Positions 30,532-47,147 of a stretch of 64,000 nucleotides of DNA are shown piece after piece. The notes under the pieces were generated by a model. That model worked only from the letters and a program-made list of their open reading frames with translations. It did no database searches and was not told the origin of the DNA. The translations under genes and the position numbers were made by a program. The stretch comes from Perkinsus olseni (lineage: Eukaryota), in NCBI GenBank assembly GCA_013115125.1, contig JABANN010000070.1, positions 1 to 64,000 on the forward strand, read 5' to 3'. Within the stretch, counting starts at the first letter, position 1. Each line of letters opens with the position of its first letter.

Positions 30532-32508
30532 ATGTCGCTCGAATCTGCATCCAGCCCGGCGCGTGCAAGTTCCAGCGCTTACAACGATAGGCTCAGTCCT
30601 TATCCAAATAAGGGGCTGTGCGGGGATCCTGAGTACGAGGAGGACTCCGAGTCCGATGACTATTCTGAGAAATTACGACAGTTGTCGGGGTGGGTGAAGG
30701 AGGCTAAGGTGAGTCCGACTGGCTTGCTTTCCCTCGCTGAGCATCTTGTGGAGCCCAACTTTGGTGGATCGCGTTCTGATTGCTCCTACTTTTGCACGGG
30801 GTCAGGGGGACTCGACACGCTTTGCGAAGTATGCAGAACGGATCGGAAGTCGTTCAGTGAAGAGAAGAAAATGCTTCAGGGAGCGTCGAGAGATCTACGA
30901 GCTGTAGACTGCAGCCCTAATCGTTTGTCTGGCCCGATTGTTGGGTAGAGGTGTATGGATTGTGACTGTTCGTTATTAAGTGACGAGTCTCTGTTGGTCA
31001 GCTCCTCGCGTCGCTCCGGAAGGGTCCGACTCGCGATTACTACTCTTCTTCAGCACCTCGTTTTCTTTACTGGGGCGGGTATATCCACAGCCTGCGGGAT
31101 ACCGGATTTTCGTGGTCCTAATGGTATCTGGACGCGCGAAAAGACGAGCAGTGAATCGAGAACAAGGGATACTCCACTGACGCCCTCCATCACGGAGGGA
31201 ACGGACGCTGTGTGTAGGTCTGACGGATACCGTGACAAGCTCCCACCACGGCAACCGGGCAGAGGACTGTTTCATACTCACTGCTTGTGCGTCAGCTTTC
31301 TCGGAGGCGATTCCGAGCTACTCTCATTTAGCCATTGCCGAGCTCATCAGTCGAGGAAAGGCGAAAGCAGTCGTGACTCAAGTACGCCTCGCAGCAGTGG
31401 TCGATCGAACTCGGCGCCTTCAGAACGTCGACGGGCTGCATTGGAAGTCCGGTATTCCGCGATCTCTATTGTCGGAGATTCATGGCTGCCTCCTCGCCTC
31501 CTACTGTGACAGCTGTCAGACTGAGTGAGTTGCTCTCTTCGCCGTAGAACCCAACCGCAGCTGTACGTTTACTCCAAGCGAAATCACCAGCATAGACATT
31601 CCTCAAGAAGCTGTGTGGTGTGGGTGTACGATGTGTTTGAGTGACTTGTCGTGTGAGAGGACGAATGATCTGCGGTTCAGTCGTGGGAGTCGGCGAGATC
31701 CGTCCGTAGGTTCCGCCACCTTGACGACGTCGGAGGCTGCGGCCAGAGACCGCTGCCAGGAGGGCTACTGTGCCCCAAGTGTGAACGGAGCAATACGAGT
31801 ATGTTATCTAACCCGATAACGAAATCCCTCGAGCTGAGTTCATTCGTTGTGCAGAGACCGCTCTACATCGACCTGTGCGAATGGTTAGACGAGAGGGTCA
31901 TCGTCGTGACTGCGTGCTGCATGACTGTGTACTGGATTGGAACGAGGAGCTTCCCGAGCCCGACAGGAGCCGAGCTATCCGTCATTGCAAACTAGCTGAC
32001 CTCTGCATTGTTATCGGTAAGGCTCATTCACACACTTCTTCTCTCATACTGAGGCATCTCATGTGACGCCCATAGTACGATGCTCTCTCGTGCGGCGAGT
32101 CATACTCGCAGTGCTAGGTTCTTCTCTACGTATCGAGCCAGCGAGCTCATTCCCTTTCTACGCCCAGTGGATCAACAAACGCATGGAGAAGCTCGAGCGA
32201 GGCCGAGTGGTCATCATCAACCTTCAGAAGACAGAGTATGATGAACGATGTGGTACGTTCCGTTGCATGACGTTCCGTGAAGTGCCTGCGGGAATGTCAT
32301 GTCTGCTGTAGATCTGCGATTTTTCACTCGTTCCGACCGAGTCTTCCGAGACCTCTTCGAGCAACTCGGCATCACCATTGAAGGGCGTCCTCTGATCAAG
32401 CCAGACTTGCTCACGGACCCAGCGCTTTACGAATCGTATCATCGAGTTCGCGGTAGCAGCAACACCCGCAGCGGTGATCCGACTGTTAAACGAATACGAA
32501 ACATTTGA
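30532..32508 (+). CDS. Class IV sirtuin (SIRT6/7-like); multi-exon
   Basis: [59 protein letters not shown]. Confidence 0.92.
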
Positions 32509-32589
32509 TAAGACAAGACCAGTGTTAGTCAATTGCCGGCCGGTCGCACACGCGTGCTCACAGCGGTAGTTCATGTATCAACTCAGCCG

Positions 32590-33054
32590 ATGATGGGCAC
32601 GCCGGAGTTACTGCACGGCAGCTACGCTGGTACACCCTGGGGTTATGACTCGGCAATAGACGAACTCCGTAGTACCGCCACCACAGAGGCTCTGTCGACA
32701 ACAAAGTCCTCGCCTAGGTCACTTGAAAGTTGCGATGGCAACAATGATGGTGATACTCTCGGGGATCATCGTGAGCTCGTGGGGTATCGACTAAGGACTG
32801 CGCACGATGTTGCACAGATCTTTCTGTTCCTTGTGGCGTCGATCGACGCGGGGCCCAGGAAGCCGCTCGGTACAAAAACGGCGCGGCAGCCGAGCCAACA
32901 AGAAAGAATCACACACATCGAAATGGACGACGCCGTGGCTCGAAGGAGAGAGTTTGAAGCCGAGCTGGACAGTGAAGAGCTAGCCTGCATTGTGAAAGCT
33001 AACTTCCCGACGGCTGAATCAGGGAAGGAGAGGTACGAGTTGGCTCACATTTGA
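32590..33054 (+). CDS. Hypothetical small protein
   Basis: Open frame only (track ORF 32533..33054). Confidence 0.3.
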   Translation: MMGTPELLHGSYAGTPWGYDSAIDELRSTATTEALSTTKSSPRSLESCDGNNDGDTLGDHRELVGYRLRTAHDVAQIFLFLVASIDAGPRKPLGTKTARQPSQQERITHIEMDDAVARRREFEAELDSEELACIVKANFPTAESGKERYELAHI

Positions 33055-33425
33055 TCGTTTGCCGACGTGGCATCGGACTCCTCCGCTGTGATGGGTGTAG
33101 ATACCGATCATCGAGCGAGGATATTCGCCTGCCGTCCATCAACTATATGCGGAAGTACCCGCCTTTCCGGCGGAAACACAAACCGCTGCCATCCTTGAAT
33201 GTTGAATAGCCCCCGCATGAGATATTTCCGTAGCCAACGGTGTTCAGTTCTGAGTGTGTGGGACGAGTATTACAGCTTTCTCATGCTACACGTACATATA
33301 CACGTACGTGTAAGCGATCTCAGCCTATCGACGGCTCATGTAACATCCTTTCTTACGTATCCCCGTTGACTACCCACGCGAACGCGACTCCAAAACCGTA
33401 TGGAAGAGAAACGTAGTTAGGCTCA

Positions 33426-36229
33426 TCACTCCGAGCCAGCTGCCTTATTCACTACGGCAAGCCATTTTGTCTCGGTCTCAGGCTGCTGATCATCCACAGG
33501 CCGGGTGATAGGTACCTGAGACACATCACATGCTCAATCAACGGGTTCATGGGGCTCTATGAGACCGGGTTTTACATGACAGTAGCGTCCCTGACGTTGA
33601 ATTCTCGTGGAATAGACCGACGGCATCTCGAACGAGTACCTGCGGATGAGTAGTTGCGTTCCCGGTAACACACAACTGCGCTGCGGGAGGCTGGCCTACT
33701 CTTTCTTATCCACGTCCTCTTCTGGGAACGTAATCCTTACTCGGCAAACATGCCTCTCTCGCCATCGGAGGAAAGATTGCGGAACCTGCAGAGGACGCGT
33801 CGCGTCCTCACGAGCACGAGGCGAGAGAGCACGTTTCTCACCATCATCCGCCAGAAGTGGTCTCGCATCAGATCGTTCGAGATCACAAACACTTTTTCAG
33901 CTGCCCGTCCTTCTTTCTCTGCTAGTGCACGGGCTTGCTCCTCACAGCGGATTGCTGCATACATCCAGAACCAATCATCATTGGCACGAGGAGGAACCTG
34001 CCCGGGGACCAGTGAATAACAATCTGGCCAGAACGAGGACCTACTCTGTAAAGCTGGAAGAGGCTAGCCTTATCATCATTTTGCTTTGTCCACTTATCAT
34101 CGTACCTGTTGTGCAGGGGCTGTCACGATCAAAGCTCGGCCATGGTCGGAATGATGGCCAGGACTTGACTTACTTCTTGATGAGCTCATCGAACTTGGTC
34201 CTCTTCTCATCGCTTAGTTCCTCAATGTCGTCTTCGTCGCTGGTGTGAGAACTCTGAGGCTTGGAAGAAGCCGATTCGTCAGCACTGTCAGGGATGGACC
34301 CATTGGCTGGTGCGGACGACGATGTCAGCTCGGGGTCCAGCTCAGGGGCGAAGCTACCTGGATCGACGCAGCAGTTTGATACACCAGAACCCTAGTGGCT
34401 CGGACACGGGCCGAAAACGGAACCGAATAATCCTCGACCGACCGCGTTGACGTGTGGTGGAACTTCAGAATTTCACCGACAGTCTGGCCGAGTGGTCTAA
34501 GGCGGTGGCTTTAGGCGCCATTCCGAAAGGGCGTGGGTTCGAACCCCACGGCTGTCACTTCTTCTTGCGATCTTTTTCCGACAGACAGCGACAGAGTAGT
34601 CGAGATACCATGTTGATCATCCCCGCTTCAGAGCCCACCATCAAGCCTAGCGAGCTTCTGCTTCTGCTTGCTTGCAATTTTCCGTCTTTTCTTGGCAAGG
34701 GGGCCCGTACCGACAGTCAAGTCGAGGCCCTGCTCCAGCCATTTGCTGTGCAAGATAACCAGAACCTTGTAAGGGTTGATGATACGAACATGATACGAAC
34801 AAAGCGCGTATCAAAAGGCTTGGCAGCTCCACCTTCTTTCCTTCATTTGTGAAATGCTCCACAACATCATCTATCTGCGAGTGCTGGAAAAAACCATCCG
34901 TGTAATTCTGGTTCATGTGCCCAATATTAGCTGCATCAACGATGATGGTTGCGGGTGTCGACTGCGAATCTAACGGTCGGGACGAGCATTTAGTTCGCCT
35001 GAATAACTAGCCGCTCCGAAATGAAGCCGACCTAAGTAATCCTTCAAGTCGAGGAATTTCTGTTGCTGTTCTTCTGATAAGTCTTGCGTCGCCAGTCTCT
35101 CAGTTAGGTCCGAAAGCTCGTGCAGCTCCTCGTCTGTGATATCAATCGACCGCAGCTTGATGCCAGTCGCGGAGCATGCTCCCTCTGCGGAGATCTCCGT
35201 GGGGAGAACTTCTACGCCCGAATCCCGCTGGCCCATGGTTTTAATAGCATCCGTCAATCTCGAATCTGTGACGGCATCTATGGTGTTAGCAACTTTATCG
35301 GCGAGGAAGTCGAAACCTACAAGCAGCGATGTATGACCGACGGACGTGTTATCTCGCCGCGGTTACTTTCGCCCGCAGGACAACACCGAAGGAGGTAGGA
35401 CAACTCTGCTTCACCGAGAGTGAATCCTCGGCTCTCTAGGTCTGCGACCAGCTTCATAGCCGCCTGAGCAGGCGAGGTGGACAGCAGATACTTATGGACC
35501 GAATCCAATCTCACATCGAAATCCTGGTACTGTGGTGAGGAATACAACTGCATGAGAGGAGCATAACTTCTTAACCGAGGTTGGAAGTTGCTCAGGCCTA
35601 ATAGAGCGGATAAGGATGGCAGACAGATGAACACTCACATTCCTTGTGGTACTGGAGGGCCAGATCGATCTCCCCAGCTGCGACGGCCAACTTCACCATG
35701 CCAGTGAGGATGTTCTCTTGCCGCTGCGAGCCTGCGGATAGACAGTAGCCAGGCGCTGCTGTAAGAAGGTGCCCTTACACTTATCCAGGACCTGCTGTGC
35801 AAGTTTGAGGATCTTTCGGGCTGTTTCGATGTCCTTGGCGGGGCATCCTGCCTCCAGATTAACATCACTAGCAGCAACGGTGAGGATACGGGCATGCATC
35901 TGAAGGAACGCACTACTACGACTAGATCTCCCGTCAGCGGCACGGATGTGAGCCACATGCGGGTGGCCAGCGGCGGAACCATCCTCCAGTTCGTGGTTGT
36001 CCTCACCCCCTTGGTCAGGCCTGCCTCCACAAAATCTTCATTTGAGATGATCTCCTCGTAAGTCTTGAATGCCCCCAAGATATCATGCCCCCGAGCTGAC
36101 GTGTACCTGCAGATGATCGGCGGGTGGTGGTGGACACTCGCCGCTGCTGCTGACGACGCACATTTTGGTTTGAATGGCCTTCAACTGCTTCTTTAAGGCG
36201 ACCTCCTTGGTGTTCTTCTGATGGGGCAT
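33426..36229 (-). CDS. PRORP: Protein-only RNase P (helical repeats + NYN nuclease); multi-exon, start uncertain
   Basis: IIVDAANIGHMNQN, VLVILHSKW, ANDDWFWMYAA, VISNDLMRDHFW, FLRWRERH, YSTRIQ, C-terminal WLAV. Basic AKKRRK insertion resembles an NLS. Confidence 0.88.
34478..34557 (+). tRNA. tRNA-Leu(TAG)
   Basis: Acceptor GACAGTC/GGCTGTC, anticodon loop TTTAGGC, variable arm, T-loop TTCGAAC, downstream T5 run. Confidence 0.96.
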
Positions 36230-36410
36230 TGGGGAGGGCAGGGCTACTTGAAACAACTGCAGATTCCTGCCGCTGCTCATCACAACCAAACTCAACATGC
36301 CACACTCGACAGCGGCGGAAAACACTGACCCAAGGTCAGCAGGTTGGAGATTCCCAACGCTCCTTCCACAGCCACGTGGGTGCCGTGATGGCGCCTGTAG
36401 ATGAGAACGG

Positions 36411-37522
36411 CTACACCCTTGGTGGCGACGTGGCATCCAGGAGACACTCCGTCCCAACTTCTGCACTCTTCTTTACATCAACAACCTTGCTGAAGTACTG
36501 AGTCCCCAGTAGACTGTCCTGAACACAAATGGATGATAACGAGGAGTAGTCGAGGGCACCACCACCACCACCTCGCCGCTCGTAAGGTAAACGTTATTGG
36601 CACTCCGAAAAAAGGCTATGTGGTCTGCAGCGGCCTTCCTAGCATCGATGTATACCTAATGTTGATCCATGACCGATACAGAATCGCCATGGCATCTACA
36701 TAGATCTCCGCGGACTTCCTCAGCCCACTGACGATGCCTGTGAGAGTAGCCGAGGCGTCCACCAAATGGATGTGCTGTCGCTGAGAGGAAGCAAGCACTG
36801 GCGAGACACAAATCCGGCCCTTCTCATCCGCGAAGACCGAGACAAGCCGGCCGAGGCTGCAGCGCCGCTGATCTAGGAGGACCGCCAGACCCGTGATGAG
36901 GCTAACACCGACCTTGTTGTACCGCTATTCTACTGTTAGCTTACGTTCATTGGCCTGAGGCCTTCACTAGCGAGGATGGCTTTCCAGTGGTTGAAGTATG
37001 TACCATGGACAAGCATTGGGGGGAGGGAAGGTGCATCCACGGGGGTCCTGTTAGAGAGCATGACGCCTAGCCGATAAGGCCAAGGTGGTACATGATGAGG
37101 GTGGGGTCTACGACAGTCGGGGGGAAGGAGTGCCCCTGTGTTGCCCGAATGAGGAGGTCACCATTGGGGGCCGTCGTCAGGGCAAAACTGATGGTCCGAG
37201 GAGTTTTGGGGAGGGAGCCATCGGGGCCATGTACCGTTGTTTAGCGTTGCTTGCAACACATTCCTTAATATCATCCTGAGTTGCCCTGAGGCTTTTGAAC
37301 CGTGGATGGGCTAGGAGGTCCTGTACTCTAACATAACCAGCCTTGTCGATGCTGATGCCCATGTCCACAGCCTTGTGACGCAGTACCTGAGCAAAGGTTG
37401 GGAGAAGTTGAGGGGCGGAATGAGGTGAAGACCTTAGACAGTAACCGTGATATGGCCTCGCTGGAACTCATCTCTCGTCGTTGTTGTCGTCTGCGGTGGT
37501 CGGGTGTCCGAGTGGAGCTCAT
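36411..37522 (-). CDS. TPT1: tRNA 2'-phosphotransferase (Tpt1/KptA); multi-exon
   Basis: SRLLSK-VLRH, SNAKQR, IRATQGHS, LVHGTY, RQHIHL, SGLRKS, YIDA, FFRSANNVYLT. Confidence 0.92.
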
Positions 37523-37605
37523 GGCCGCCGAAGAAGCCCCTACTTGGGGAAGAGCACTCGGACCACGACCCATCAACTCAACAGCTCACATCAATGGAGG
37601 AACAT

Positions 37606-38705
37606 TCACGAGGTTTTCTGCCTGTCTCCAGCGACCTTCCTCTCGGTGGTCGTCACCCCGGCAGCCCTCATCTGCTGCCTCCGCTGAGCTATCATGTACT
37701 CGTAGAGGGCCGTGTTGTCCCGCTCGATGTTGGACACGGACTGGAGGAGCCCCGCAGCGCACGCTAGGATGGCACCGTACCTGTAGCAGCAGGCAGGACG
37801 TGGCGGGAGGGACGGCCATCAAGGAACAGCGAGGAGCGGTGATTTAGAAGGATGAATAGCAGGGTTTGAAGCAGAGGACTTACGGCAGGAGGGGGATGAG
37901 TTCTAGTTGGAACCACGCTGCAACGAAGAGGTAGCTGACGGAGGCCAGGGCTATGATACAGGCAATCTTCGATATGGGGTAAAGCCATACCGGAGGGCCT
38001 ACAGGGCCTGCCCTCTCACGGATGTAGGGCTCCACCTGAGGGGGCATGTGGGGAAGAAGGGGGGGATGCGTGGTACTCACAATAAGCATGAAGCCGAAGA
38101 GAGCTCCCATTGATGTGGCGATGCTTCGGTTGAAGAACGACCAATCGGCTACTATACCCCAGTACCGATACAGATGGTTGATCTTGGAATCTAGTAGAGG
38201 GGAGCAGGACAGCATCGAGATCGGTAGATGGCACCACCTGAGGACAATCCATCAACTATCATCACGCATGTACTATTGTAGTCAGCGAACAACTTCTTGG
38301 ACGCTACGACTCCCGAGCTCTACTCCAAGGCCACATCCTATGTCGAGGAAACCTGCAGCCTAAGGCAGGCAGCGTCGGACTACAGTCACCACAACAACAA
38401 CCATCATCATGCATCACGAGAGAACGTAGGAAAACAAGCGAACAGATCTGTTCTCTATTCCAATGCTTTCCATCTCGTGGAAGATGTTGACTAGAAAATA
38501 CGGTAAGTCACCTGTTGCCCGCTGCCTCCTCTCGGTGGCCCATGACCTCCACTATCTCAGTCAGGAGGCACCAGAGTAGCCCACAGCCGGCCATGAGGGT
38601 CTGCCTCCTACGGTCAGTGCATCTACTCCTAGGGCCAGTAAAGCACCAAAGGAGGACTGCCACTTGGATGGCAGCCAAGCTGATGTAGACGAGGAGGTGT
38701 AGCAT
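37606..38705 (-). CDS. Hypothetical multi-pass membrane protein; ends approximate
   Basis: Several hydrophobic exons (MLHLLVYISLAAIQVAVLLW, IACIIALASVSYLFVAAWF). Confidence 0.4.
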
Positions 38706-38936
38706 TACCGCAACGGCTGAACACTGATTACAACCATCATCATGATAACGATGAGAAGGTGACGCCGGCCTAGCAGGCCTTTCCTAATGTCACACCAACG
38801 CAGAGGTTATCACCCTTAACACGGGCCTCCAGTACGCTCGTTCGGAATCACCATCCCACTGCTCAACGCAACCCAAAGAGGGCCCCTCCTGGAGGGGTAC
38901 GAAACACATGGCGTAGAAACATAACACATCCTCATC

Positions 38937-40855
38937 ATCACGGCAGCACTGATGGCTTCTGTTCTGTTGTCCTCCCTTTCTCTACACTACTGCTCACGTC
39001 CTGATCCTCGTAGTAGACACCCTGATAAGGCACAGTAGTCGTTAGACCCTACGGCGCTCCATACCCACCCCGGTAGGCTGCTGCTCCCCTTCCGTGCCAC
39101 CACCAGCGCTATCAGCCTCATCGGCCAGGCCCCCTTGGAAGGACTCTGCCTCTTCACACAGTAGACTACCCCGTGCATGGAGTGTATCCAGCTGGTCGGC
39201 TATGACAGCAGGGACCTAAGTACAACCAAAGGGCCTTCGATGATGGTACAGGGCTCAAGCACTGACCTCCTCATGCATGGCCAGGCCTCCCGGTATCTCC
39301 TTATAAAACAGGTCTTCCCTTTTAGCACTCATGATAGCCTCTCTAACGTCATCAACAGTCGCCCTGTCGGCTGGGGTGAGGGCTATGGTGGGGAGGAGGT
39401 AAGTCAGTGGAGGGCAATGCATCATAGCTGTGGAGGCAGCAGTATTCCATCGCTCATCCGCAGCCTCTGCAGAAGACCCCGTCTATAGGTCCGTAGCTAG
39501 AGACACTCACTGTCCTCTTCCTCCAGCTTCTTGCTCCACTTTGGCACCTTCATACTCAACAGCATATCGTCCTCGTCATCAGTATCCGCCAGGGCAGCCT
39601 CCGCGGCACCTGAAGGGGGCGTAGAAGCGGCGTGCCCCCACCCTCCTTACGCATCTCTTGGCTTTCCTTGTGGACCTCGCCAACTGACCCTTCCCACTGC
39701 AGCCGAGTGCCCTGCATAATCTCCCTCATAAACATGACAGTGTCCTTAACAGGGTCAGTCCTGCCCACTATCATTGCCGTATCCAGCTGGTAAGGCCTAT
39801 GCCTTCGTAGTATCACCTACCAGTACCACGATGGTCTATCACAACATCCCTGACTACTACCCTCTTCTGGAATATGAGTTGGGGCGTGAGGGAGTTGGGA
39901 TCCATCTGCCTCTTCATGATCCTCTTCACCATCCCCTTCCCACTATAAACCCTCGATAAACGGAACCACGTGGCGAGCATTTCAGGCAATCTGTTCTCTA
40001 TGTACTGCTGCCGCCGCGCCAGAGCCTTTGGCTTGCCCTCCCCGATCCATCTGCAGTGAACCTCTCCGCCATGAGCATGCTTGCACGGAAGATACTACCT
40101 GCGCAAATATGCAAGCCAAGTTGGCGACGTCGCCACCACGTGCGCTATCCTTTGTTTCCTCTCATCCTCCAACTCCCTCAAAGCCCGCAATACATAGACC
40201 GTAGCCTGTCCTCCAGCTACGACCAAATAGAACGGCCGAGGACGCGCGCTAAAGTGATCAAGAACCTGCTACTCAGGTGTGGCACTCCTGGGCATCATCT
40301 CCAACCTGGTAGGCATAGTGAGTGTAGGTGCTAACGAGCGTGCCTTGGAAGACGTCCTCGAGCATGGCCCAGTTGGCAAAACCATCCTTCAATGCAAAGC
40401 CTGGCCAGTCCACGATGGCCGAAGTATGGCCTGAATCGATCAACAGGATACACGACGGGGAGAGGCCCTAGACACACGGTACCCAGCTCCGCCAAATGCT
40501 TAGCTACTGTACGCCACTCCTCGCGGCTGCTCACCAACGAGAATGATGGGAAGAAGACAAACCGTGGCTGAGGGGCCGACCTGACAGCCATGGTAACAGC
40601 TGAGGGGTCGTCCTACCACCCTACTACCTCCGGGACTTGAAGCCGACATGGTCGTCTGTCGGTGTGACGAGGGCATACTCGTACCTGAGGGGCAGAACAT
40701 TTCCATAGCGACGAGTACTGAGGTAGTGACCTATTAAAATCCTGGGTCTTGTGGTGCCAGCGCATGACGCCTGTAGTGAAGGAAGGACCCGAGGATGAGG
40801 AGGAGGAGGAGGAGAACCCTCGCCGTGCACTAGTCATCACGCGTGTGGGGAACAT
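38937..40855 (-). CDS. Alpha/beta-hydrolase-fold protein with possible mitochondrial presequence; end approximate
   Basis: FVFFPSFSLVSSREEWRTVA and IVDWPGF motifs; Arg/Ser-rich N-terminus. Confidence 0.5.
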
Positions 40856-41039
40856 GAGTGGCGGCAGGCGGCGGCAGATGCAAGGGGGAGTCATGACAAG
40901 AAAATCCTGGAGAAGAAGAGGACCCGATGATTCCTCTGCCCCTTGGGCTGCATACATGTATCAACACGGGCAGTCCTTGGACAGTTTGTGTTCTACCGTG
41001 GACCTCCTCCGGAGCCTCAACACTCAACAGCACCTACGG

Positions 41040-42447
41040 CTAGAGAAACATCTTCTTAAGCCGGGGTCGGGGAGGGCATCCCCCCTGTGATGGCTTATTA
41101 CGTACATCAGGACCAAAGACAGTGACCCGATGCCCATGACCGCCCTCTGATGATGGCGATCCAACTCTGAGTTCAAATGTACACACTGACTTTGGCAGAA
41201 GCCGATATCTGAGCAACAGCAGGATGGTGTTGACGAAGAGAATAGCAAGCCCGCCGTGCACCGTCACTGCGCCACGAAATTGGGGAGAGCTACAATACTG
41301 CGGAGTCTTAGTACCTCCCATCATCATGGTCCATAACCACAAGGCTGTTCTGATTCTCCATTACAACCGTACCAGCCAGTCCTATCATGTACTTGTCCGT
41401 GCAGTCGATCACCTCCACTACAGCTCCCAGCCAGGATGCTTGCCGCAGCTGCCTCATGTCAAGACGCCCTCCTTCCATGACGCAAGTCTTGTTAATATAC
41501 GCTAACCAAAGCTCCCTCAGGTCAGAGGCCGCCGACAAGCGACGCTGCCTCTCCTTGTCGTCTGAGGAAGCAAACCGTGCAACACCGGCGTGGTCACGTG
41601 GCCCCTTGCGGGCGAAATATTCCTCCCGTAGAACAACATTACCAAATCCCAACCAGCTGAGCCATAAGCGCGGGAAATTTCTCACTGAGTGAGTTTCTCG
41701 AGGCACTCCAGCTTCGAAAAGTGGAGGGGATGCCGAAATCGCGTGCAAGCCCTTACTTGCAGGCTTCCCTCCGTGTTTTCTATCATCGATACCCCTCAGC
41801 TTGGTGGCCCTCCTGCTAAGCATTGGCCCAATATCTTCTTGTCTGGGTCGAGGGACCTTAGCCATACCAGCATCTAATGGTACTGGCTTCGTGGCTATCT
41901 GCCGGTTATACCTTCCCACGACAAATACCACACCACGCCCAACTCAGCAACAACAGCCTCACTGATCTCGAATCTTGGTGAAGGCCGTATCCTCATCCTT
42001 CAACCCGGCATAGACCCCCGCCCACTTCATTATCCTCGGAACTGCTACCTCTGGGTTGAAGTCTGCCAAGAAAGGCATGGACTTCTTCTCCTGCTCCGGC
42101 CCTCCCCTCACCCATTAGCCTATCACCATCCACTGTAGAATAGATGAGGTCCTGCGCCGGTGGGCCGTCTTGGAGGGATGCTCGATCCTCCGGCCGCACC
42201 GACGACGTTGAAGGCGAACTCGCTGCTGCAGAGGAGGTTTTCCTGACCCACACCGTTCCCTCTCACCCACGGCATTCCGTGCTGCTAAGCTACGACCAGT
42301 ACGCTACCTTGCATTCGCCCCACCCTTGCGCTTCTTCCCCTTGGCTTTGTTGGCTCTCTTCGGCTGAACCTTCCTACCACCACCACCGCCGCCCCCGCCG
42401 AAGACTGAGTCCAGGAAGGACTCGACAGCCGCTGAACGACCGGACAT
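41040..42447 (-). CDS. POP4: RNase P/MRP subunit p29; multi-exon
   Basis: ELWLAY, ASWLGAVVEV...IGLAGTVVMENQNSL, LLPKSVCTF, VTVFG. Confidence 0.75.
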
Positions 42448-42581
42448 GGACAGCACCAAAGGGACTACTGAAAGGAAATGATCGAGGCCCAGCAACCAAA
42501 TCTTCTGGATAGATCATAAAATAGTCGGCACCGAAGCCTACTGCTGTTGTTTTATTAGAAAGCTAGTGCAATCATGGACAA

Positions 42582-45042
42582 TCAAGGCTGCTGCTGCTGA
42601 TGACGCTGGACGAGCCTACCAACCACGGGTAGTTCATGCTCCCTATCATACGTGTCGAGGAACCAGCGTAGGATACCACGATAAGAGGGCCTCAGCAGAT
42701 GGTGATGCTCGTGCCCCTGCTGCTGCTCGATGTCCGCAGCGGCAGCAGCAGTAGAGACCCTCGACGCCTCAGCCTCACTACTATCCCCATAGTCGGATTG
42801 GTATTCCTCTGATGACAACTCTGACTCAGAGTACAGGGATGCCGAGCTAGGCGGCAAGTCCCGAGGTAGGCAGGGAGGCCGTAGAGAACTCTTGATCGGA
42901 GGTATCGGAGCTGCAGGCAGCCTACTCAGAACAGCGAGTCTCAATACTGCCGACAAGCGGTCATTGTGCGGTCTTCTTACACGTTGTTCTGGCATGCTGT
43001 TGTGCGTGTCTCCTCAGCATCGAAGGCATAGGTAAGGGTTCCAACACCGCATGCCGCCAGTACTAACAAAACCCTCCGTAGGGCCGGCCCGATGGTCAGC
43101 CTTTGTAACACTATATGAAGGGCATGCGACAGGACGAACATCGCTATCTCGCGCCTGACAACAAGTGCCTGGAGTGCGGGCCGCCCAGGCCCGCGTACCT
43201 CCGCTGTGGCTTTTCTAATAAGATGGCTGGTCCAGCGAGCATACCACCTATCAATGGGCCGTGCTTCGAGTTGAGTGCCTCTGGGGAGATCAGGTTGGAG
43301 CCCGCGCAAACGATGAGGTGCAGTAGGCCGACTTGCCTACAACAGGAGACCTAGCTACAGCAGCAGTCTGGGTAGTTGCTGCTACGCTGTCATGAAGAGG
43401 GAAGACTGGCCGACGTTCATGACGAAGCGTCTGGCGGCTTTGGGCAGATTGCGCTCGCCTTTGATGAGGGCGATGATCAGGGTTGCTAGGTAGAGTTTGG
43501 CGTAGAGTGGTACGTTGAGCCTCGTGAAGGAGTTAATGGAGAAGTGCAGGAGGCTCGGGACGCCTATCAACAAGATCGGGCATCACAGCAAGCATCACAG
43601 GCAAGCCCTACAGCCCTCAACTCCACTGTAATGATGCAACCCACAGAGAGGGACATTATCATAACGAGCCTTCACTCGAGGAGGGAGCTCTCCCGGGCCA
43701 CCGAGTCTGAGGTTTGAGGAACTACAGGGGGCGGGGGGGATGTCAGGGATGTCGCCTCTCCTGAACTACAGGCGCGCTCTCAAGGTGGGATTAGAGGTGC
43801 AGAAGACGATCCCGAGTGCGAAACTCAGGAGAGGCAGCAGGGTATTGAGCAGCCGGTGCGGACTGGTACTAACCTGGTGAAGAATGCCTCTAGCCTGTCC
43901 CTCTCCACCATAGTCTGGATGCCGGCGAACCTCCTGTATTTGGGGTCCATAGTCTGTGGATGGCGGATGCAGGCATCCACCACAATACCATCACCAACCA
44001 TCATCGCCGCCAACTAAGAGCCGCATGACCTCTGATGACGGTATCAAAAGCGAGCCTCCGCTACTACCGAAGCTGCCGCCGCTGGACTGCCCAGACAAAT
44101 CCTATCAACAACGGCCTGCAGCCTAGGAGGCAGGTTGGCATACCCCAGCACAGTGAGGACCTCACAGGCTCGGCAAATGACGAATAGAGCAACGGAATAG
44201 CGACCGCTGCGTTCGGCCAGGGGTAAGGCGCACATGGTGGATACGAAACCTCGGAAGAATGGTGACGATAGAGGAGGGGAGCCGGAAACACTCCCTGATG
44301 GAGAAGGGCGGGCTCGAGCTACCATGCCATTGTACAGTGCCTGATACCGACAGTGCCAACACTGCGAGTAGCTGGAATTGTGGTATAGCAGAGGGTTGGA
44401 AATGACGAAAACTGATACGGGGTTTGTTTCCGTCGTGGCGGGGTCGAACCCCCGCCCTACACTGCCCTCCACCCTATTACCATGAAGACTCCCACTGCCA
44501 GAGCATTCCGAGCATGGGCTGGTAATGTCCGTAGAATCTGAGTCAGCCTGACGACCTTCCTCTTCTTCCTCCCCATTAACAAGGACATCATGGATATGAT
44601 AGCAAGGCCCGTAGTAGTAAGACAGACTGTGCCTTCCAAGAAGCTCCTCAGGGCGACTACTGTCGGCTTGCCCCGAGAGGCCCTGCAACAAAAGGTACGT
44701 CATGAGGTACGGCATCAGCTGTTAGACTAACCAAGCCCATAACGTCCCCGACGGACCTCCTTATGCAGCGAGGACTACAGACCAACGGGCGCGACCGCCA
44801 GTAGGATTGAGGGGAGGACAACAACCGTACGAGATCTCATAGTCGTGCGACATAAAGCCGGACGAAGCTAACACCCCACACTACCTATGGACGTCTTTCA
44901 ACCTATGCTCCTCCTCCTTTTCTCTGTCCACATGCTTACGATGAAGGTAGAGTGCTGACTGTATTCTCGATAGCACCTGTAGATCCGCCCCTACCACCTG
45001 GCCGAGAGGCGTGAGCTCCGATGATGACAGGAGAGTATCCAT
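42582..45042 (-). CDS. TMEM135-like membrane protein; multi-exon, start approximate
   Basis: RYSVALFVICRA, SFTRLNVPLYAKLYL, SSLFMT, EIAMFVLSHAL patterns. Confidence 0.6.
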
Positions 45043-45515
45043 TCCCGACCCCAACTGCTGCCATCACAACATCGGCCGTATTAGGGCGATTTCACCCATC
45101 TCCCGTAACCCCACCCCAACGCAACCTTTCCGTCCAGTCTCATACTAAATCACCGTCACTTTCAAGACAACGCCGGAAGGGAATAATCGTTCGCAAAAAT
45201 AAGTGTAGACAGTCTGCCCCGGCAATTCCACAGAATCGTGCTGGGTCCTTTGCCAACGGCAGGGAGCAATCAAACGCCAGGGCATGTGTGCCCAGCGGCC
45301 GGTTTTCGGCCTCCTCGACACGGGCAAGTTCCCCTAAGATGGGCCTTCTCCTCGCCGTCCACTGGGCAGCATTTCGATCGCAGTGTGGATATAAAGGCTC
45401 GTATGAGGGTAAAATTCTCAGACCCTTCTGTGAGGTTGAGTAGAACCTTTGATGGGCTCGGTATCTGAGCATCCGGGGTTGAATAGGGTCGTATCCAAGA
45501 TACGCTCGGGGGACC

Positions 45516-47147
45516 TCACAATACTACCTCTGTAGCTGTGGACTGGCACTCTGACGACGTACCACTCTTCCCGTTGTTGATCATCAAAAGCTCATCAGGC
45601 AAGCAGAAGTAGACTGCAACCCAGACGGCTGCAATGGCCTTATCATCCATCCAGTCCGCCCTGTCCCTAGACGGCCCAAACATGGGAGGGACGCGTCCAG
45701 CCACTGGCGGGTGTGAACTCTCATCACCGAAGGCACGTAGTAATGTGGCCACGATCGATGCCTTGTCGCCATCCTCATTATCCCCCTGAGGGCTCCAATA
45801 AGCATTGATAGTATCGACCAGCCGCCTTTGCTCAGCTACTGCGAAGAAGACACCACGCATGATGGGCGAGTCCAACTTGGCCACTGCCCGCAGGAAGCAT
45901 CGGAAGAGCTCCTCTAGGTACGTCTCACGCGACAAAGTGGGCTGCCTCGAGGACAGCTTGACCTCGGCCGACTGCCGCTGTATTTCCTTTTGGAACGCAG
46001 TGGTCAGAGCCATGGTAGCCGAGGTAGGTATTGATGCCAAGGCGAGCAGCTTGGGACCAGCCTCAGGTGGTAATGAACCAGGCTGAAGGGAGAAGATATC
46101 GTTTGTCGGTGATGCTAAGTATTACCCTCTGCCTCCCCAACACTATATAACCTCTAGAATTGCCTGTAGCATTATCAATAGGATACATTGCCTTTACTAG
46201 CCTAGGGAGCTTTATCCAGTGCGGTGGGTACTTGAACCTAGGATACCCATCTCAAGATGCCTGGACTGATTCCAGCGCCCATACCTCGCCACATCCAAAA
46301 CTAAGACCGAGTCCGAGGCAGCATGATAGGCCCCAATCGGGGAGAAGTGCCCGCTGCCAGCTTGACCTACTGCTGCTCTGTCGTAGGACACTACCAATAC
46401 CTGAAGTACAGCTGCTGCTACCCCGTGAAACTCGCCTTTCTCCGACCACCTTGTCGAGGCCACCGCAGCTTTCAAGCAGCCTCCCATCAGACGTCCAGGA
46501 CTCAACAGTATCCCGGAAGCCCTGTAGGAACTGAGCATCCAGGTTGGGTTCCGCAGTGGACTCAGTAGCCGTCGTAGAGCATTCTGATGGTTCCTCGAGC
46601 TGATAAGGGATCGCTGGGGCGAGGATCATCACATCCACCTACCGAAGGCCTGCGCACTTGTACTCCGAGACCATTGCACCGGGCTAAACAGGCGAAGGTG
46701 TCTATAGAGATGCCCTCTGAAGCAACCTCCTCCAAGTTAATACAGCACGCTCCTAGATGGTTCTCATCATACCTGAGACCCTCCATGTTCTGCTGTCAAG
46801 ACGGACACTAGGGACCGCTAACGACCACCAGGTACTACCATCGCCATACTCCCCTCCAGGTCCTCCATGGGTCGATGCCCAACGTGTTAAGAGTCATAAT
46901 GAGCGTGGTGAGGCCGCAGTACGCGGGTTGGTCCTGAAGTGGTGGAATGGGAAGCGATAGGTTATACAAGAACCCGTACTTGTGTTTTAAATTGGCACAT
47001 AAGTGGTAGGAAAGGGTAAGCATGCCCATCGGCCATGGCTTCACTCAGTCGTCGACGGCCCTCTTTACTACATACAGTAGGCTCATCATCTGGTAGAGTC
47101 TTTTGGTAAAATACCCCTTGGGGCACTGCCCTTGGCGAGCTAGGCAT
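45516..47147 (-). CDS. PCS: Phytochelatin synthase; multi-exon
   Basis: QDQPAYCGL (Cys), [33 protein letters not shown] (His), LVLDVAR (Asp), YPPHW. Confidence 0.93.

What the first reader, a model, noticed from the sequence alone, without database searches (positions are those of the whole stretch)
33426..37522. Tpt1 abuts PRORP and can be spliced into an in-frame Tpt1-PRORP fusion
Seen: the Tpt1 stop (36413-36411) is only ~110-180 nt from the candidate PRORP starts (36298, 36229) on the same strand. A 64-nt GT-AG intron (GTTGGG 36458 to CTACAG 36395) would remove that stop and enter, in phase 0, a frame that stays open into PRORP. Established: Tpt1 removes the 2'-phosphate after tRNA splicing and PRORP cuts 5' leaders. 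Inference: either a bifunctional tRNA-maturation protein or a co-transcribed pair resolved by trans-splicing. An acceptor-like TTTCAAGTAG before 36229 supports the second option.
Basis: partly seen in the sequence, partly recalled or inferred. Interest (0 to 1): 0.72.

Follow-up and report, generated by a model that had tools for sequence, protein, structure and literature searches.

The report
Adjacent Tpt1 and PRORP genes, unfused
In this Perkinsus olseni stretch two tRNA-processing genes lie head to tail about 150 bases apart, but RNA data show each makes its own spliced-leader-capped message, so the proposed fusion protein (also found in public gene models) is most likely an annotation artefact.

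Summary
The sequence facts are right: the Tpt1 stop (36413-36411), ATGs at 36298 and 36229, a 64-nt GT..AG span (36458-36395) in phase 0, and an open frame into PRORP. They are not beyond chance. 86 GT..AG pairs would give an in-frame fusion, and the frame is open in 841 of 5000 shuffles.

The window is Perkinsus olseni. Spliced RNA contigs from four runs confirm 7 Tpt1 and 15 PRORP exons. All four run unbroken through the proposed intron. They carry the end of the Perkinsus spliced leader (CTTGGCTCA+AG) at AG 37541-40 before Tpt1 (1 run) and at AG 36258-57 before PRORP (2 runs), 27 nt upstream of ATG 36229. Complete 829/828-nt Tpt1 contigs end at 36315.

So there are two separate mRNAs, about 56 nt apart. 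One contig bridges the two genes, which fits a common precursor but does not prove one.

Three deposited P. olseni models fuse the genes, each through a different invented intron. P. chesapeaki annotates them apart. None of the 40 long PRORP relatives scanned carries a Tpt1 domain.

Side observations: a tRNA-Leu gene inside PRORP intron 9, a Pop4/Rpp29 gene 3.5 kb upstream, and a 9-mer shared by both spacers.

Verdict: an ordinary SL-resolved tandem pair; the fusion is not supported.

The parts
36411..37522 (-). Tpt1 (tRNA 2'-phosphotransferase) coding region: 7 exons, 237 aa. Introns at 37387-37432, 37188-37234, 37048-37091, 36781-36944, 36656-36699 and 36519-36571.
   Evidence: Four introns are seen as joints in RNA contigs and are GT..AG on the - strand. 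The other two were fixed by open frame and the NRQHIHL motif, and they agree with P0037 and P0006. PF01885 scores 183 bits on the identical public model. The best solved relative is 7yw3_A, E 1.9e-36.
37540..37541 (-). AG acceptor where the spliced leader joins the Tpt1 mRNA, 17 nt before ATG 37522.
   Evidence: table 7: the X1 contig has loose letters TGAGCCAAG (+ strand) at 37541, followed by Illumina adapter. On the - strand this reads CTTGGCTCA followed by the genomic AG.
36315..36317 (-). Place where the Tpt1 RNA contigs stop; probable 3' end of the Tpt1 mRNA (3' UTR about 96 nt).
   Evidence: table 8: X4 record 8 (829 nt) and X6 record 11 (828 nt) begin at 36315; X2 record 6 begins at 36317. 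The span 37541..36315 minus the six introns is 829 nt. No poly(A) letters were seen, so this is only a hint.
36259..36314 (-). 56-nt spacer between the Tpt1 contig end and the PRORP spliced-leader acceptor.
   Evidence: It is crossed only by X1 record 3, which runs 36160-36517 unbroken.
36289..36297 (-). TGTTGAGTT, a 9-mer shared with the spacer in front of Tpt1 (37575-37583).
   Evidence: 6 exact copies in the window against 0.45 expected; 0 of 100 shuffles reach 6.
36257..36258 (-). AG acceptor where the spliced leader joins the PRORP mRNA, 27 nt before ATG 36229.
   Evidence: table 7: X4 and X2 contigs have loose letters TGAGCCAAG at 36258. The published P. marinus leader ends ...CTTGGCTCAAG (PMC9399869, passage seen).
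33426..36229 (-). PRORP (protein-only RNase P) coding region: 15 exons, 583 aa.
   Evidence: Eleven introns are seen as joints. The last three were chosen from 57 open combinations by identity to P0037 and P0003. PF17177 and PF16953 are found. Solved relatives are 4g23_A and 5diz_A (A. thaliana PRORP1 and PRORP2), E 2.8e-22 and 3.4e-21.
36395..36458 (-). It is present as sequence but retained in every contig that covers it.
   Evidence: table 8: unbroken pieces 36160-36517 (X1), 36315-36517 (X4, X6) and 36317-36517 (X2). It is one of 86 possible stop-skipping pairs.
34478..34558 (+). tRNA-Leu (anticodon TAG) gene, antisense, inside PRORP intron 9 (34358-34638). At 281 nt this is by far the longest intron of the gene.
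   Evidence: ARAGORN; Rfam RF00005, 54.5 bits; the intron is seen as a joint in 4 runs.
37575..37583 (-). Second copy of TGTTGAGTT, in the 57-nt spacer between the upstream gene's contig end (37599) and the Tpt1 acceptor.
   Evidence: X4 record 9 ends at 37599.
37606..37777 (-). Last exon and stop (TGA 37608-37606) of the upstream same-strand membrane-protein gene.
   Evidence: ORF; joint 37777/38078, GT..AG on the - strand. X2 record 6 runs unbroken 37431-37777, so it bridges this gene and Tpt1.

Best explanation
Tpt1 and PRORP of Perkinsus olseni are two separate genes in tandem on the minus strand. Each is cis-spliced (6 and 14 short GT-AG introns). Each yields its own mature mRNA, whose 5' end is the Perkinsus spliced leader, added at an AG 17 nt (Tpt1) or 27 nt (PRORP) before the start codon.

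The Tpt1 message keeps its TAG stop and ends about 96 nt later, near 36315, roughly 56 nt before the PRORP acceptor. PRORP is translated from ATG 36229, the first ATG after the leader. ATG 36298 lies upstream of the acceptor and is removed from the mature mRNA.

What is shown: the exon structure, the leader junctions, the retained stop, and the separate contigs. What is inferred: the two genes (and the gene upstream of Tpt1) are read as one precursor, which 3'-end formation and trans-splicing then cut into single messages. The fused proteins in the public records are products of gene finders, which bridged very short gaps in a frame that happens to be open.
For: Spliced leader:
- table 7 shows the same 9 loose letters (CTTGGCTCA on the - strand, followed by genomic AG) at 36258 in X4 and X2, and at 37541 in X1.
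- PMC9399869 gives the 22-nt P. marinus leader as ending CTTGGCTCAAG (passage).

Separate messages:
- X4 record 8 (829 nt) equals 37541..36315 minus the six introns. X6 has an 828-nt contig.
- X4, X2 and X6 have PRORP contigs of 1815, 1810 and 1809 nt, separate from the Tpt1 contigs.

Stop retained: every contig covering 36395-36458 is unbroken there (4 of 4 runs).

Comparison with relatives:
- P. marinus and P. chesapeaki PRORP models start at the same MPHQKN/MVHQKN.
- Their Tpt1 models stop within a few residues of the P. olseni stop, with E-x-L-L conserved inside the proposed intron.
- A P. marinus-like translation upstream of the ATG (P0104) shows no likeness to the P. olseni upstream frame.
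- P. chesapeaki files the two genes as consecutive separate proteins, KAF4664703.1 and KAF4664704.1, on a contig of the same length.

Artefact reading of the fused models: P0037, P0039 and P0002 each join the genes at a different point and also swallow the upstream gene. 86 alternative joins exist.

Common precursor:
- X1 record 3 runs 36160-36517 unbroken and is spliced on both sides. X2 record 6 does the same across the upstream gene and Tpt1.
- PMC4858233 states that Perkinsus trans-splicing converts polycistronic transcripts to monocistronic mRNAs (passage).
Against: - All RNA evidence comes from assembled contigs. Contigs drop rare isoforms and cannot show molecule ends.
- 11 of the 26 joints found were not displayed, so a minor fused isoform is not excluded.
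- No poly(A) letters were seen at 36315.
- Only X4 and X6 are on record as RNA; X1 and X2 are guessed to be RNA.
- A bridging contig can be chained from read-through or from traces of DNA, and does not prove one precursor molecule.
- The leader letters stop after 9 in all three runs, so only 11 of the 22 leader positions were matched.
- In P. marinus the annotated Tpt1 fragment and PRORP sit on contigs of different length (1,432,500 and 695,714), so adjacency may not hold there.
Confidence: 0.88

Rival explanations
1. A real bifunctional Tpt1-PRORP protein is made by cis-splicing that removes the Tpt1 stop. The intron could be the reader's 64-nt one, one of those in the deposited models, or a splice from a Tpt1 donor to the spliced-leader acceptor at 36257. 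It could be the main isoform or a minor one.
For: - The frame is open from 36472 to the PRORP ATG.
- Donors in this genome are degenerate (GTGGGC, GTCGGC, GTCTTC and others), so GTTGGG is not implausible.
- Three public models are fused: KAF4663820.1, KAF4672660.1 and KAF4698452.1.
- 11 joints were not displayed.
- Several of the 86 in-frame pairs end at the real acceptor, 36257.
Against: - Contigs of 4 of 4 runs are unbroken through the stop.
- The leader is added at 36258 in 2 runs.
- The three public fusions disagree with each other on the junction.
- P. chesapeaki and P. marinus models are unfused.
- The C-terminal residues that would be deleted are conserved.
- From the phmmer search with P. 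marinus PRORP, I scanned the 40 hits of 650 aa or more among the 150 best. None of the 40 carries PF01885. The extra domains seen were La (1) and R3H (2).
- The open frame occurs in 17% of shuffles.
Confidence: 0.05
2. The two genes are transcribed independently. PRORP would have its own start site in or just upstream of the 56-nt spacer, perhaps at the shared TGTTGAGTT element, and a very short outron that is replaced by the leader. The bridging contigs would be read-through or DNA traces.
For: - TGTTGAGTT lies 31-34 nt before both acceptors and is enriched in the window (6 copies against 0.45 expected).
- Its distance to the next ATG is fairly constant (52, 59 and about 63 nt at three junctions), while its distance from the preceding stop varies (22, 113 and 10 nt).
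- In X4 and X6 the messages are assembled separately.
Against: - Bridging contigs exist at both same-strand junctions (X1 record 3, X2 record 6).
- 56 nt leaves little room for a promoter.
- The literature describes Perkinsus trans-splicing as resolving polycistrons (PMC4858233, passage).
- The motif also sits 16-18 nt after both upstream contig ends, as a downstream element of 3'-end formation would.
Confidence: 0.3
3. The adjacency has a function. On this reading Pop4/Rpp29, Tpt1, PRORP and the nested tRNA-Leu form a co-regulated tRNA-maturation cluster rather than chance neighbours.
For: - Three of five consecutive same-strand genes act on tRNA or RNase P/MRP substrates: Pop4 (PF01868, 30.1 bits, at 41308-41943), Tpt1 and PRORP.
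- A tRNA gene lies in a PRORP intron.
- Tpt1 and PRORP are also consecutive in P. chesapeaki.
Against: - Two unrelated genes lie between Pop4 and Tpt1.
- Synteny between congeners is expected anyway.
- In P. marinus the two annotated proteins lie on contigs of different length.
- No genome of a relative could be searched here.
- The grouping was defined after seeing the genes.
Confidence: 0.2

Closest known systems
Spliced-leader trans-splicing of Perkinsus and dinoflagellate mRNAs (22-nt leader ACCGTAGCCATCTTGGCTCAAG in P. marinus; PMC9399869 passage, PMC3101222 abstract)
   Same: The last 11 leader letters are found joined to a genomic AG just before the start codon of both genes.
   Different: Only 11 of the 22 positions were seen. 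The species is P. olseni, whose leader I did not find in the passages I read.
Caenorhabditis elegans operons, with downstream genes resolved by SL2 about 100 nt after the upstream poly(A) site (recalled; PMC9399869 mentions the SL1/SL2 division)
   Same: Same-strand genes, a very short spacer (about 56-57 nt here), a leader added to the downstream gene, and a possible U/GU-rich element in the spacer.
   Different: A single leader type was seen here for both the upstream and the downstream gene. A single precursor and a single promoter are not shown.
Polycistronic transcription units of kinetoplastids (recalled)
   Same: Trans-splicing of the downstream gene and 3'-end formation of the upstream gene occur within a short spacer.
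   Different: Perkinsus genes are full of cis-introns, and the unit here is bounded by a convergent gene after only a few genes.
Over-merged gene models from automatic annotation of compact genomes
   Same: Public models KAF4663820.1 (1011 aa), KAF4672660.1 (1043 aa) and KAF4698452.1 (880 aa) merge the upstream gene, Tpt1 and PRORP through three different stop-skipping introns.
   Different: Nothing differs; this is the ordinary case.
PRORP proteins with extra N-terminal RNA-binding domains
   Same: Among the 40 long PRORP relatives scanned, 1 carries a La domain and 2 an R3H domain, so PRORP does take part in real fusions.
   Different: None carries Tpt1.

Membership tests
Tpt1/KptA RNA 2'-phosphotransferase (PF01885) | Full-length match to the family profile | tested here: met
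   PF01885 scores 183.1 bits over profile positions 12-177 of 177 on P0037, whose exons are 100% identical to the window. Exon ORFs of the window score 62.9, 28.5 and 16.1 bits.
Tpt1/KptA RNA 2'-phosphotransferase (PF01885) | Conserved LRH, R-x-x-QGHS and R-x-HIHL motifs. Their role as the catalytic Arg-His-Arg-Arg tetrad is recalled, not tested. | tested here: met
   In the alignment to solved Tpt1 chains 7yw3_A, 7yw2_A and 7yw4_A, lrh pairs with lrh, iratqghs with iranqghs, and rqhihl with rthihl.
Tpt1/KptA RNA 2'-phosphotransferase (PF01885) | NAD-dependent removal of the 2'-phosphate | not testable with these tools
   This needs an enzyme assay.
PRORP (protein-only RNase P) | PPR domain followed by a NYN metallonuclease domain | tested here: met
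   PF17177 scores 55.1 bits and PF16953 88.4 bits on P0037; P0004 gives the same. PDB relatives 4g23_A and 5diz_A have E 2.8e-22 and 3.4e-21.
PRORP (protein-only RNase P) | Metal-binding aspartates of the NYN site | not tested
   The stretches DAANIGH, NDDWFWMY and SNDLMRDH are present in the model, but no residue-by-residue alignment to a solved PRORP was printed.
Spliced-leader trans-spliced mRNA | Leader sequence that is not in the genome, joined at an AG at the mRNA 5' end | tested here: met
   Loose letters at 36258 (X4, X2) and at 37541 (X1) equal the end of the published leader.
Operon-like polycistronic unit | Same strand and a spacer of about 100 nt or less between the upstream 3' end and the downstream acceptor | tested here: inconclusive
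   The same strand is shown. The spacers are 56 and 57 nt only if the contig ends at 36315 and 37599 are true 3' ends, and no poly(A) was seen.
Operon-like polycistronic unit | One RNA molecule carrying both genes | tested here: inconclusive
   There are bridging contigs, X1 record 3 and X2 record 6. Contigs are not molecules.
Natural fusion (bifunctional) protein | A transcript that joins both frames without the stop | tested here: not met
   4 of 4 runs keep the stop, and no such joint is among the 15 shown; 11 were not shown.
Natural fusion (bifunctional) protein | Fused orthologues in other taxa | tested here: not met
   0 of 40 long PRORP relatives carry PF01885. P. chesapeaki and P. marinus models are separate. 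Only the 150 best of 700 hits were listed, and of these only the 40 of 650 aa or more were scanned.

The most novel reading that the evidence does not exclude
The minus-strand run Pop4/Rpp29 ... membrane gene - Tpt1 - PRORP, with tRNA-Leu nested in a PRORP intron, would be a conserved operon-like tRNA-maturation unit. Its messages would be cut apart within spacers of about 56 nt. A shared element (TGTTGAGTT, 16-18 nt after the upstream 3' end and 31-34 nt before the acceptor) would couple 3'-end formation to spliced-leader addition, as the intercistronic element does in nematode operons. Occasional cis-splicing from a Tpt1 donor to the same acceptor could then give a rare in-frame Tpt1-PRORP protein.
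Probability: 0.12. Interest if true: 0.6.

Novelty: new member of a known kind. Interest (0 to 1): 0.27.

Why it matters
It corrects the public record. At least three deposited P. olseni proteins present Tpt1 and PRORP (plus an unrelated membrane protein) as one polypeptide, and UniRef names the result 'tRNA 2'-phosphotransferase 1'. Domain-architecture surveys would read that as a Rosetta-stone link between two tRNA-maturation steps.

The locus also gives a small, well-defined example of how tightly Perkinsus packs same-strand genes. The leader acceptor of one gene lies about 56 nt after the apparent end of the previous message. A candidate spacer motif found here could be tested genome-wide.

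For biology at large, the result is ordinary.

Tried and rejected
- Whole-genome search: no genome is held for this window. So I could not test synteny in P. marinus, other perkinsids or dinoflagellates at the DNA level.
- Earlier notes of the scan: none for this genome.
- Uncovered spacer: in X2, X4 and X6 no contig piece listed lies on 36259-36314. This is a part without cover, so I do not use it as evidence. Shares of 0.36-0.51 in the 20 runs I did not lay are likewise not used.
- Splice-site strength: the confirmed donors are too degenerate to score the proposed GTTGGG against them, so I built no weight matrix.
- Motif followed by an ORF: for the six exact TGTTGAGTT sites the longest ORF from an ATG within 100 nt was 5-81 codons. 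Random positions reach 30 codons or more in 46% of cases, so this test says nothing.
- The 164-nt Tpt1 intron 4 as a host of a small RNA: there is no Rfam match, and its fold is no better than shuffles (z = +1.08).
- Literature:
  - 'Perkinsus' + 'PRORP' found 1 paper, a review of dinoflagellate RNA-binding proteins seen only in the listing.
  - 'Perkinsus' + 'polycistronic' found 38 papers, of which I read passages of one.
  - The 9-mer occurs in 319 papers; the 10 listed are unrelated, mostly primer contexts.
  - A search for P. olseni gene-model papers returned nothing useful.
  - PMC3101222 holds none of 'polycistron', 'acceptor', 'intergenic' or 'olseni'.
  - Within these searches I found no description of a Tpt1-PRORP pair or of the motif.
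- The junction between the two genes upstream of Tpt1 (stop about 38937, next ATG 38705) has no copy of the motif. So the motif is present at 3 of the 4 same-strand junctions I looked at, one of them with a mismatch.
Full report
**1. What is in the sequence**

On the minus strand of 33426-37522 lie two intron-rich genes.
- Exon ORFs match Pfam PF01885 (Tpt1/KptA) between 36616 and 37467.
- Exon ORFs match PPR_long and PRORP between 33737 and 35634.

**2. Which organism**

- A PRORP exon (94 aa) is 98% and 96% identical to Perkinsus olseni proteins, 87% to P. marinus and 76% to P. chesapeaki.
- A Tpt1 exon is 94-98% identical to P. olseni proteins.
- The public models P0037 and P0039 match the window's exons at 100%.
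- No whole genome is held for the window.

**3. RNA evidence**

A search with 33300-37700 found 24 runs holding 36-51% of the sampled words, about what the exons alone would give. Two of the runs are on record as RNA.

I laid the contigs of X1, X4, X6 and X2 on 32500-38500. All are spliced.
- The 15 joints shown become GT..AG introns on the minus strand once the allowed shift of the cut is applied.
- Together with open-frame and homology arguments they give two models:
  - Tpt1: 7 exons, 237 aa.
  - PRORP: 15 exons, 583 aa.

Three observations decide the question.

*(a) Spliced leader on both genes.*
- Contigs of X4 and X2 end at 36258 with nine letters that are not in the genome. On the minus strand these read CTTGGCTCA, followed by genomic AG and TTGTTTCAAG....
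- A contig of X1 has the same nine letters at 37541, followed by genomic AG and GGGCTTC..., 17 nt before the Tpt1 ATG.
- The P. marinus spliced leader is ACCGTAGCCATCTTGGCTCAAG (PMC9399869, passage seen).
- So both mRNAs carry the leader. PRORP receives it at AG 36258-36257, 27 nt before ATG 36229.
- ATG 36298 lies upstream of the acceptor and is not in the mature message.

*(b) Complete, separate Tpt1 contigs.*
- The Tpt1 contigs of X4 (829 nt) and X6 (828 nt) begin at 36315. The X2 contig begins at 36317.
- 37541..36315 minus the six introns is exactly 829 nt.
- These contigs are therefore complete Tpt1 messages, from the leader acceptor to a 3' end about 96 nt after the stop.
- No poly(A) letters were seen, so the 3' end is a hint and not a mapped site.

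*(c) The proposed intron is retained.*
- Every contig that covers 36395-36458 is unbroken there: 36160-36517 in X1, 36315-36517 in X4 and X6, and 36317-36517 in X2.
- The proposed intron is therefore not removed in the assembled form of any of the four runs.
- Limits: contigs drop rare variants, and 11 of the joints found were not displayed.

**4. Is the open frame meaningful?**

No.
- 86 GT..AG pairs of 30-300 nt would remove the stop and join the frames without a new stop.
- The PRORP frame between the stop and the ATG is stop-free in 841 of 5000 dinucleotide shuffles.

**5. The public fused models**

Three P. olseni records fuse the genes:

| Model | Accession | Length | Junction |
|---|---|---|---|
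| P0037 | KAF4663820.1 | 1011 aa | ...SPPRV/NLQLFQ... |
| P0039 | KAF4672660.1 | 1043 aa | ...SPPRV/SVGNLQ... |
| P0002 | KAF4698452.1 | 880 aa | ...SPP/EKNTKEV... |

- All three models also absorb the upstream membrane-protein gene, and P0037 and P0039 skip the true Tpt1 N-terminus.
- Another strain's model of the upstream gene (P0035) ends at that gene's own stop.
- Such disagreement is what over-merging by a gene finder looks like.

**6. Relatives**

- P. chesapeaki files Tpt1 (KAF4664703.1, 233 aa) and PRORP (KAF4664704.1, 581 aa) as consecutive, separate proteins on a contig of the same length, 43,686.
- P. marinus PRORP (576 aa) is unfused and starts at MPHQKN. The only annotated P. marinus Tpt1 piece (151 aa) lies on a contig of a different length. 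Adjacency is therefore unconfirmed, and perhaps absent, there.
- The three Tpt1 C-termini align through the region the proposed intron would delete (E-x-L-L invariant) and stop within a few residues of each other.
- A translation that reads upstream of the P. marinus-like ATG (P0104) bears no likeness to the P. olseni upstream frame.
- A phmmer search of 1.84 billion representatives with P. marinus PRORP gave 700 hits at E 0.001 or better.
  - Of the 150 best, I scanned the 40 of 650 aa or more against Pfam.
  - None of the 40 has PF01885. One has a La domain and two have R3H.

**7. Mechanism**

*Shown:* there are two messages, each with a leader, and the stop is kept.

*Inferred:* the genes may share a precursor.
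- X1 record 3 (1090 nt) runs unbroken from PRORP exon 1 through the spacer into the last Tpt1 exon and is spliced on both sides.
- X2 record 6 (1527 nt) does the same across the upstream gene and Tpt1.
- A paper states, as general background, that Perkinsus trans-splicing converts polycistronic transcripts into monocistronic mRNAs (PMC4858233, passage).
- Contigs are not molecules, so I put co-transcription at roughly even odds to 60%.
- The unit is short: the next gene downstream of PRORP is on the plus strand (intron 33033-33100 is GT..AG on +), and its transcript overlaps the PRORP 3' end (X1 record 1).

**8. The spacers**

- From the contig end of the upstream gene (37599) to the Tpt1 acceptor is 57 nt. 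From 36315 to the PRORP acceptor is 56 nt.
- Both spacers hold TGTTGAGTT, 16-18 nt after the contig end and 31-34 nt before the acceptor.
- The 9-mer occurs 6 times in the window against 0.45 expected (0 of 100 shuffles reach 6). With one mismatch it occurs 26 times against 13 expected.
- A one-mismatch copy lies 10 nt after the stop of the Pop4 gene and about 63 nt before the next ATG.
- A fourth same-strand junction has no copy.
- With this material I cannot tell whether it is a 3'-end element, an outron or trans-splicing element, or a start-site element.

**9. Neighbourhood**

- A tRNA-Leu(TAG) gene lies antisense in PRORP intron 9, which at 281 nt is the longest intron of the gene.
- An RNase P/MRP p29 (Pop4) domain is encoded at 41308-41943 on the same strand (PF01868, 30.1 bits against a cutoff of 27). 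Two unrelated genes lie between it and Tpt1.
- This is suggestive of functional clustering, but the grouping was defined after the fact and is untested in other genomes.

**10. Verdict**

- The fusion reading is not supported.
- The locus is an ordinary member of a known kind (spliced-leader-resolved tandem genes in Perkinsus).
- Its practical value is to correct the fused public models. It also provides a candidate spacer motif worth a genome-wide look.

Noticed in passing
window 34478-34558 (+), inside PRORP intron 34358-34638: A tRNA-Leu(TAG) gene lies antisense within intron 9 of the gene for the enzyme that trims tRNA 5' leaders. This intron is 281 nt, while the other 13 are 41-107 nt. 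An X1 contig shares the tRNA and then diverges at 34560, which suggests another copy elsewhere.
   Followed up: partly
window 41040-41943 (-): An RNase P/MRP subunit p29 (Pop4/Rpp29) gene lies on the same strand, about 3.5 kb upstream of Tpt1 (PF01868, 30.1 bits on exon ORF 41308-41943). A likely last exon ends at TAG 41042-41040. The public model P0035 merges it with at least three neighbouring genes into a 1612-aa protein.
   Followed up: partly
window 6658, 9776, 28877, 36289, 37575, 63948 (exact copies); 41021 (one mismatch): TGTTGAGTT is enriched about 13-fold in the window (6 copies against 0.45 expected). It sits in the short spacers before Tpt1, PRORP and the gene after Pop4, 52-63 nt before the next ATG. 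Its function is unknown. I found no paper on it in the searches made.
   Followed up: partly
window 36258 and 37541 (loose ends of RNA contigs): In three runs the spliced-leader letters stop after exactly 9 (11 counting the shared AG). In X1 they are followed directly by Illumina adapter. This could reflect leader variants that diverge at that point, or a block to reverse transcription inside the leader.
   Followed up: no
window 32512-33400 (+) against the PRORP 3' end near 33401 (-): A plus-strand gene (intron 33033-33100) converges on PRORP. One X1 contig runs unbroken 33099-33512, so the 3' parts of the two transcripts seem to overlap. The PRORP 3' UTR appears to be only about 25 nt.
   Followed up: partly
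public record of P. marinus PRORP (P0003, XP_002776791.1): The P. marinus orthologue of this PRORP is named 'multidrug resistance pump, putative' in NCBI. Pfam finds only the PRORP domains in its close relatives, so the name looks wrong.
   Followed up: no
window 37606-46188 (-): At least five consecutive genes share the minus strand. Public gene models merge them in different ways in different P. olseni strains (P0035, P0005, P0037, P0039, P0002). Over-merging is probably common in this annotation.
   Followed up: partly
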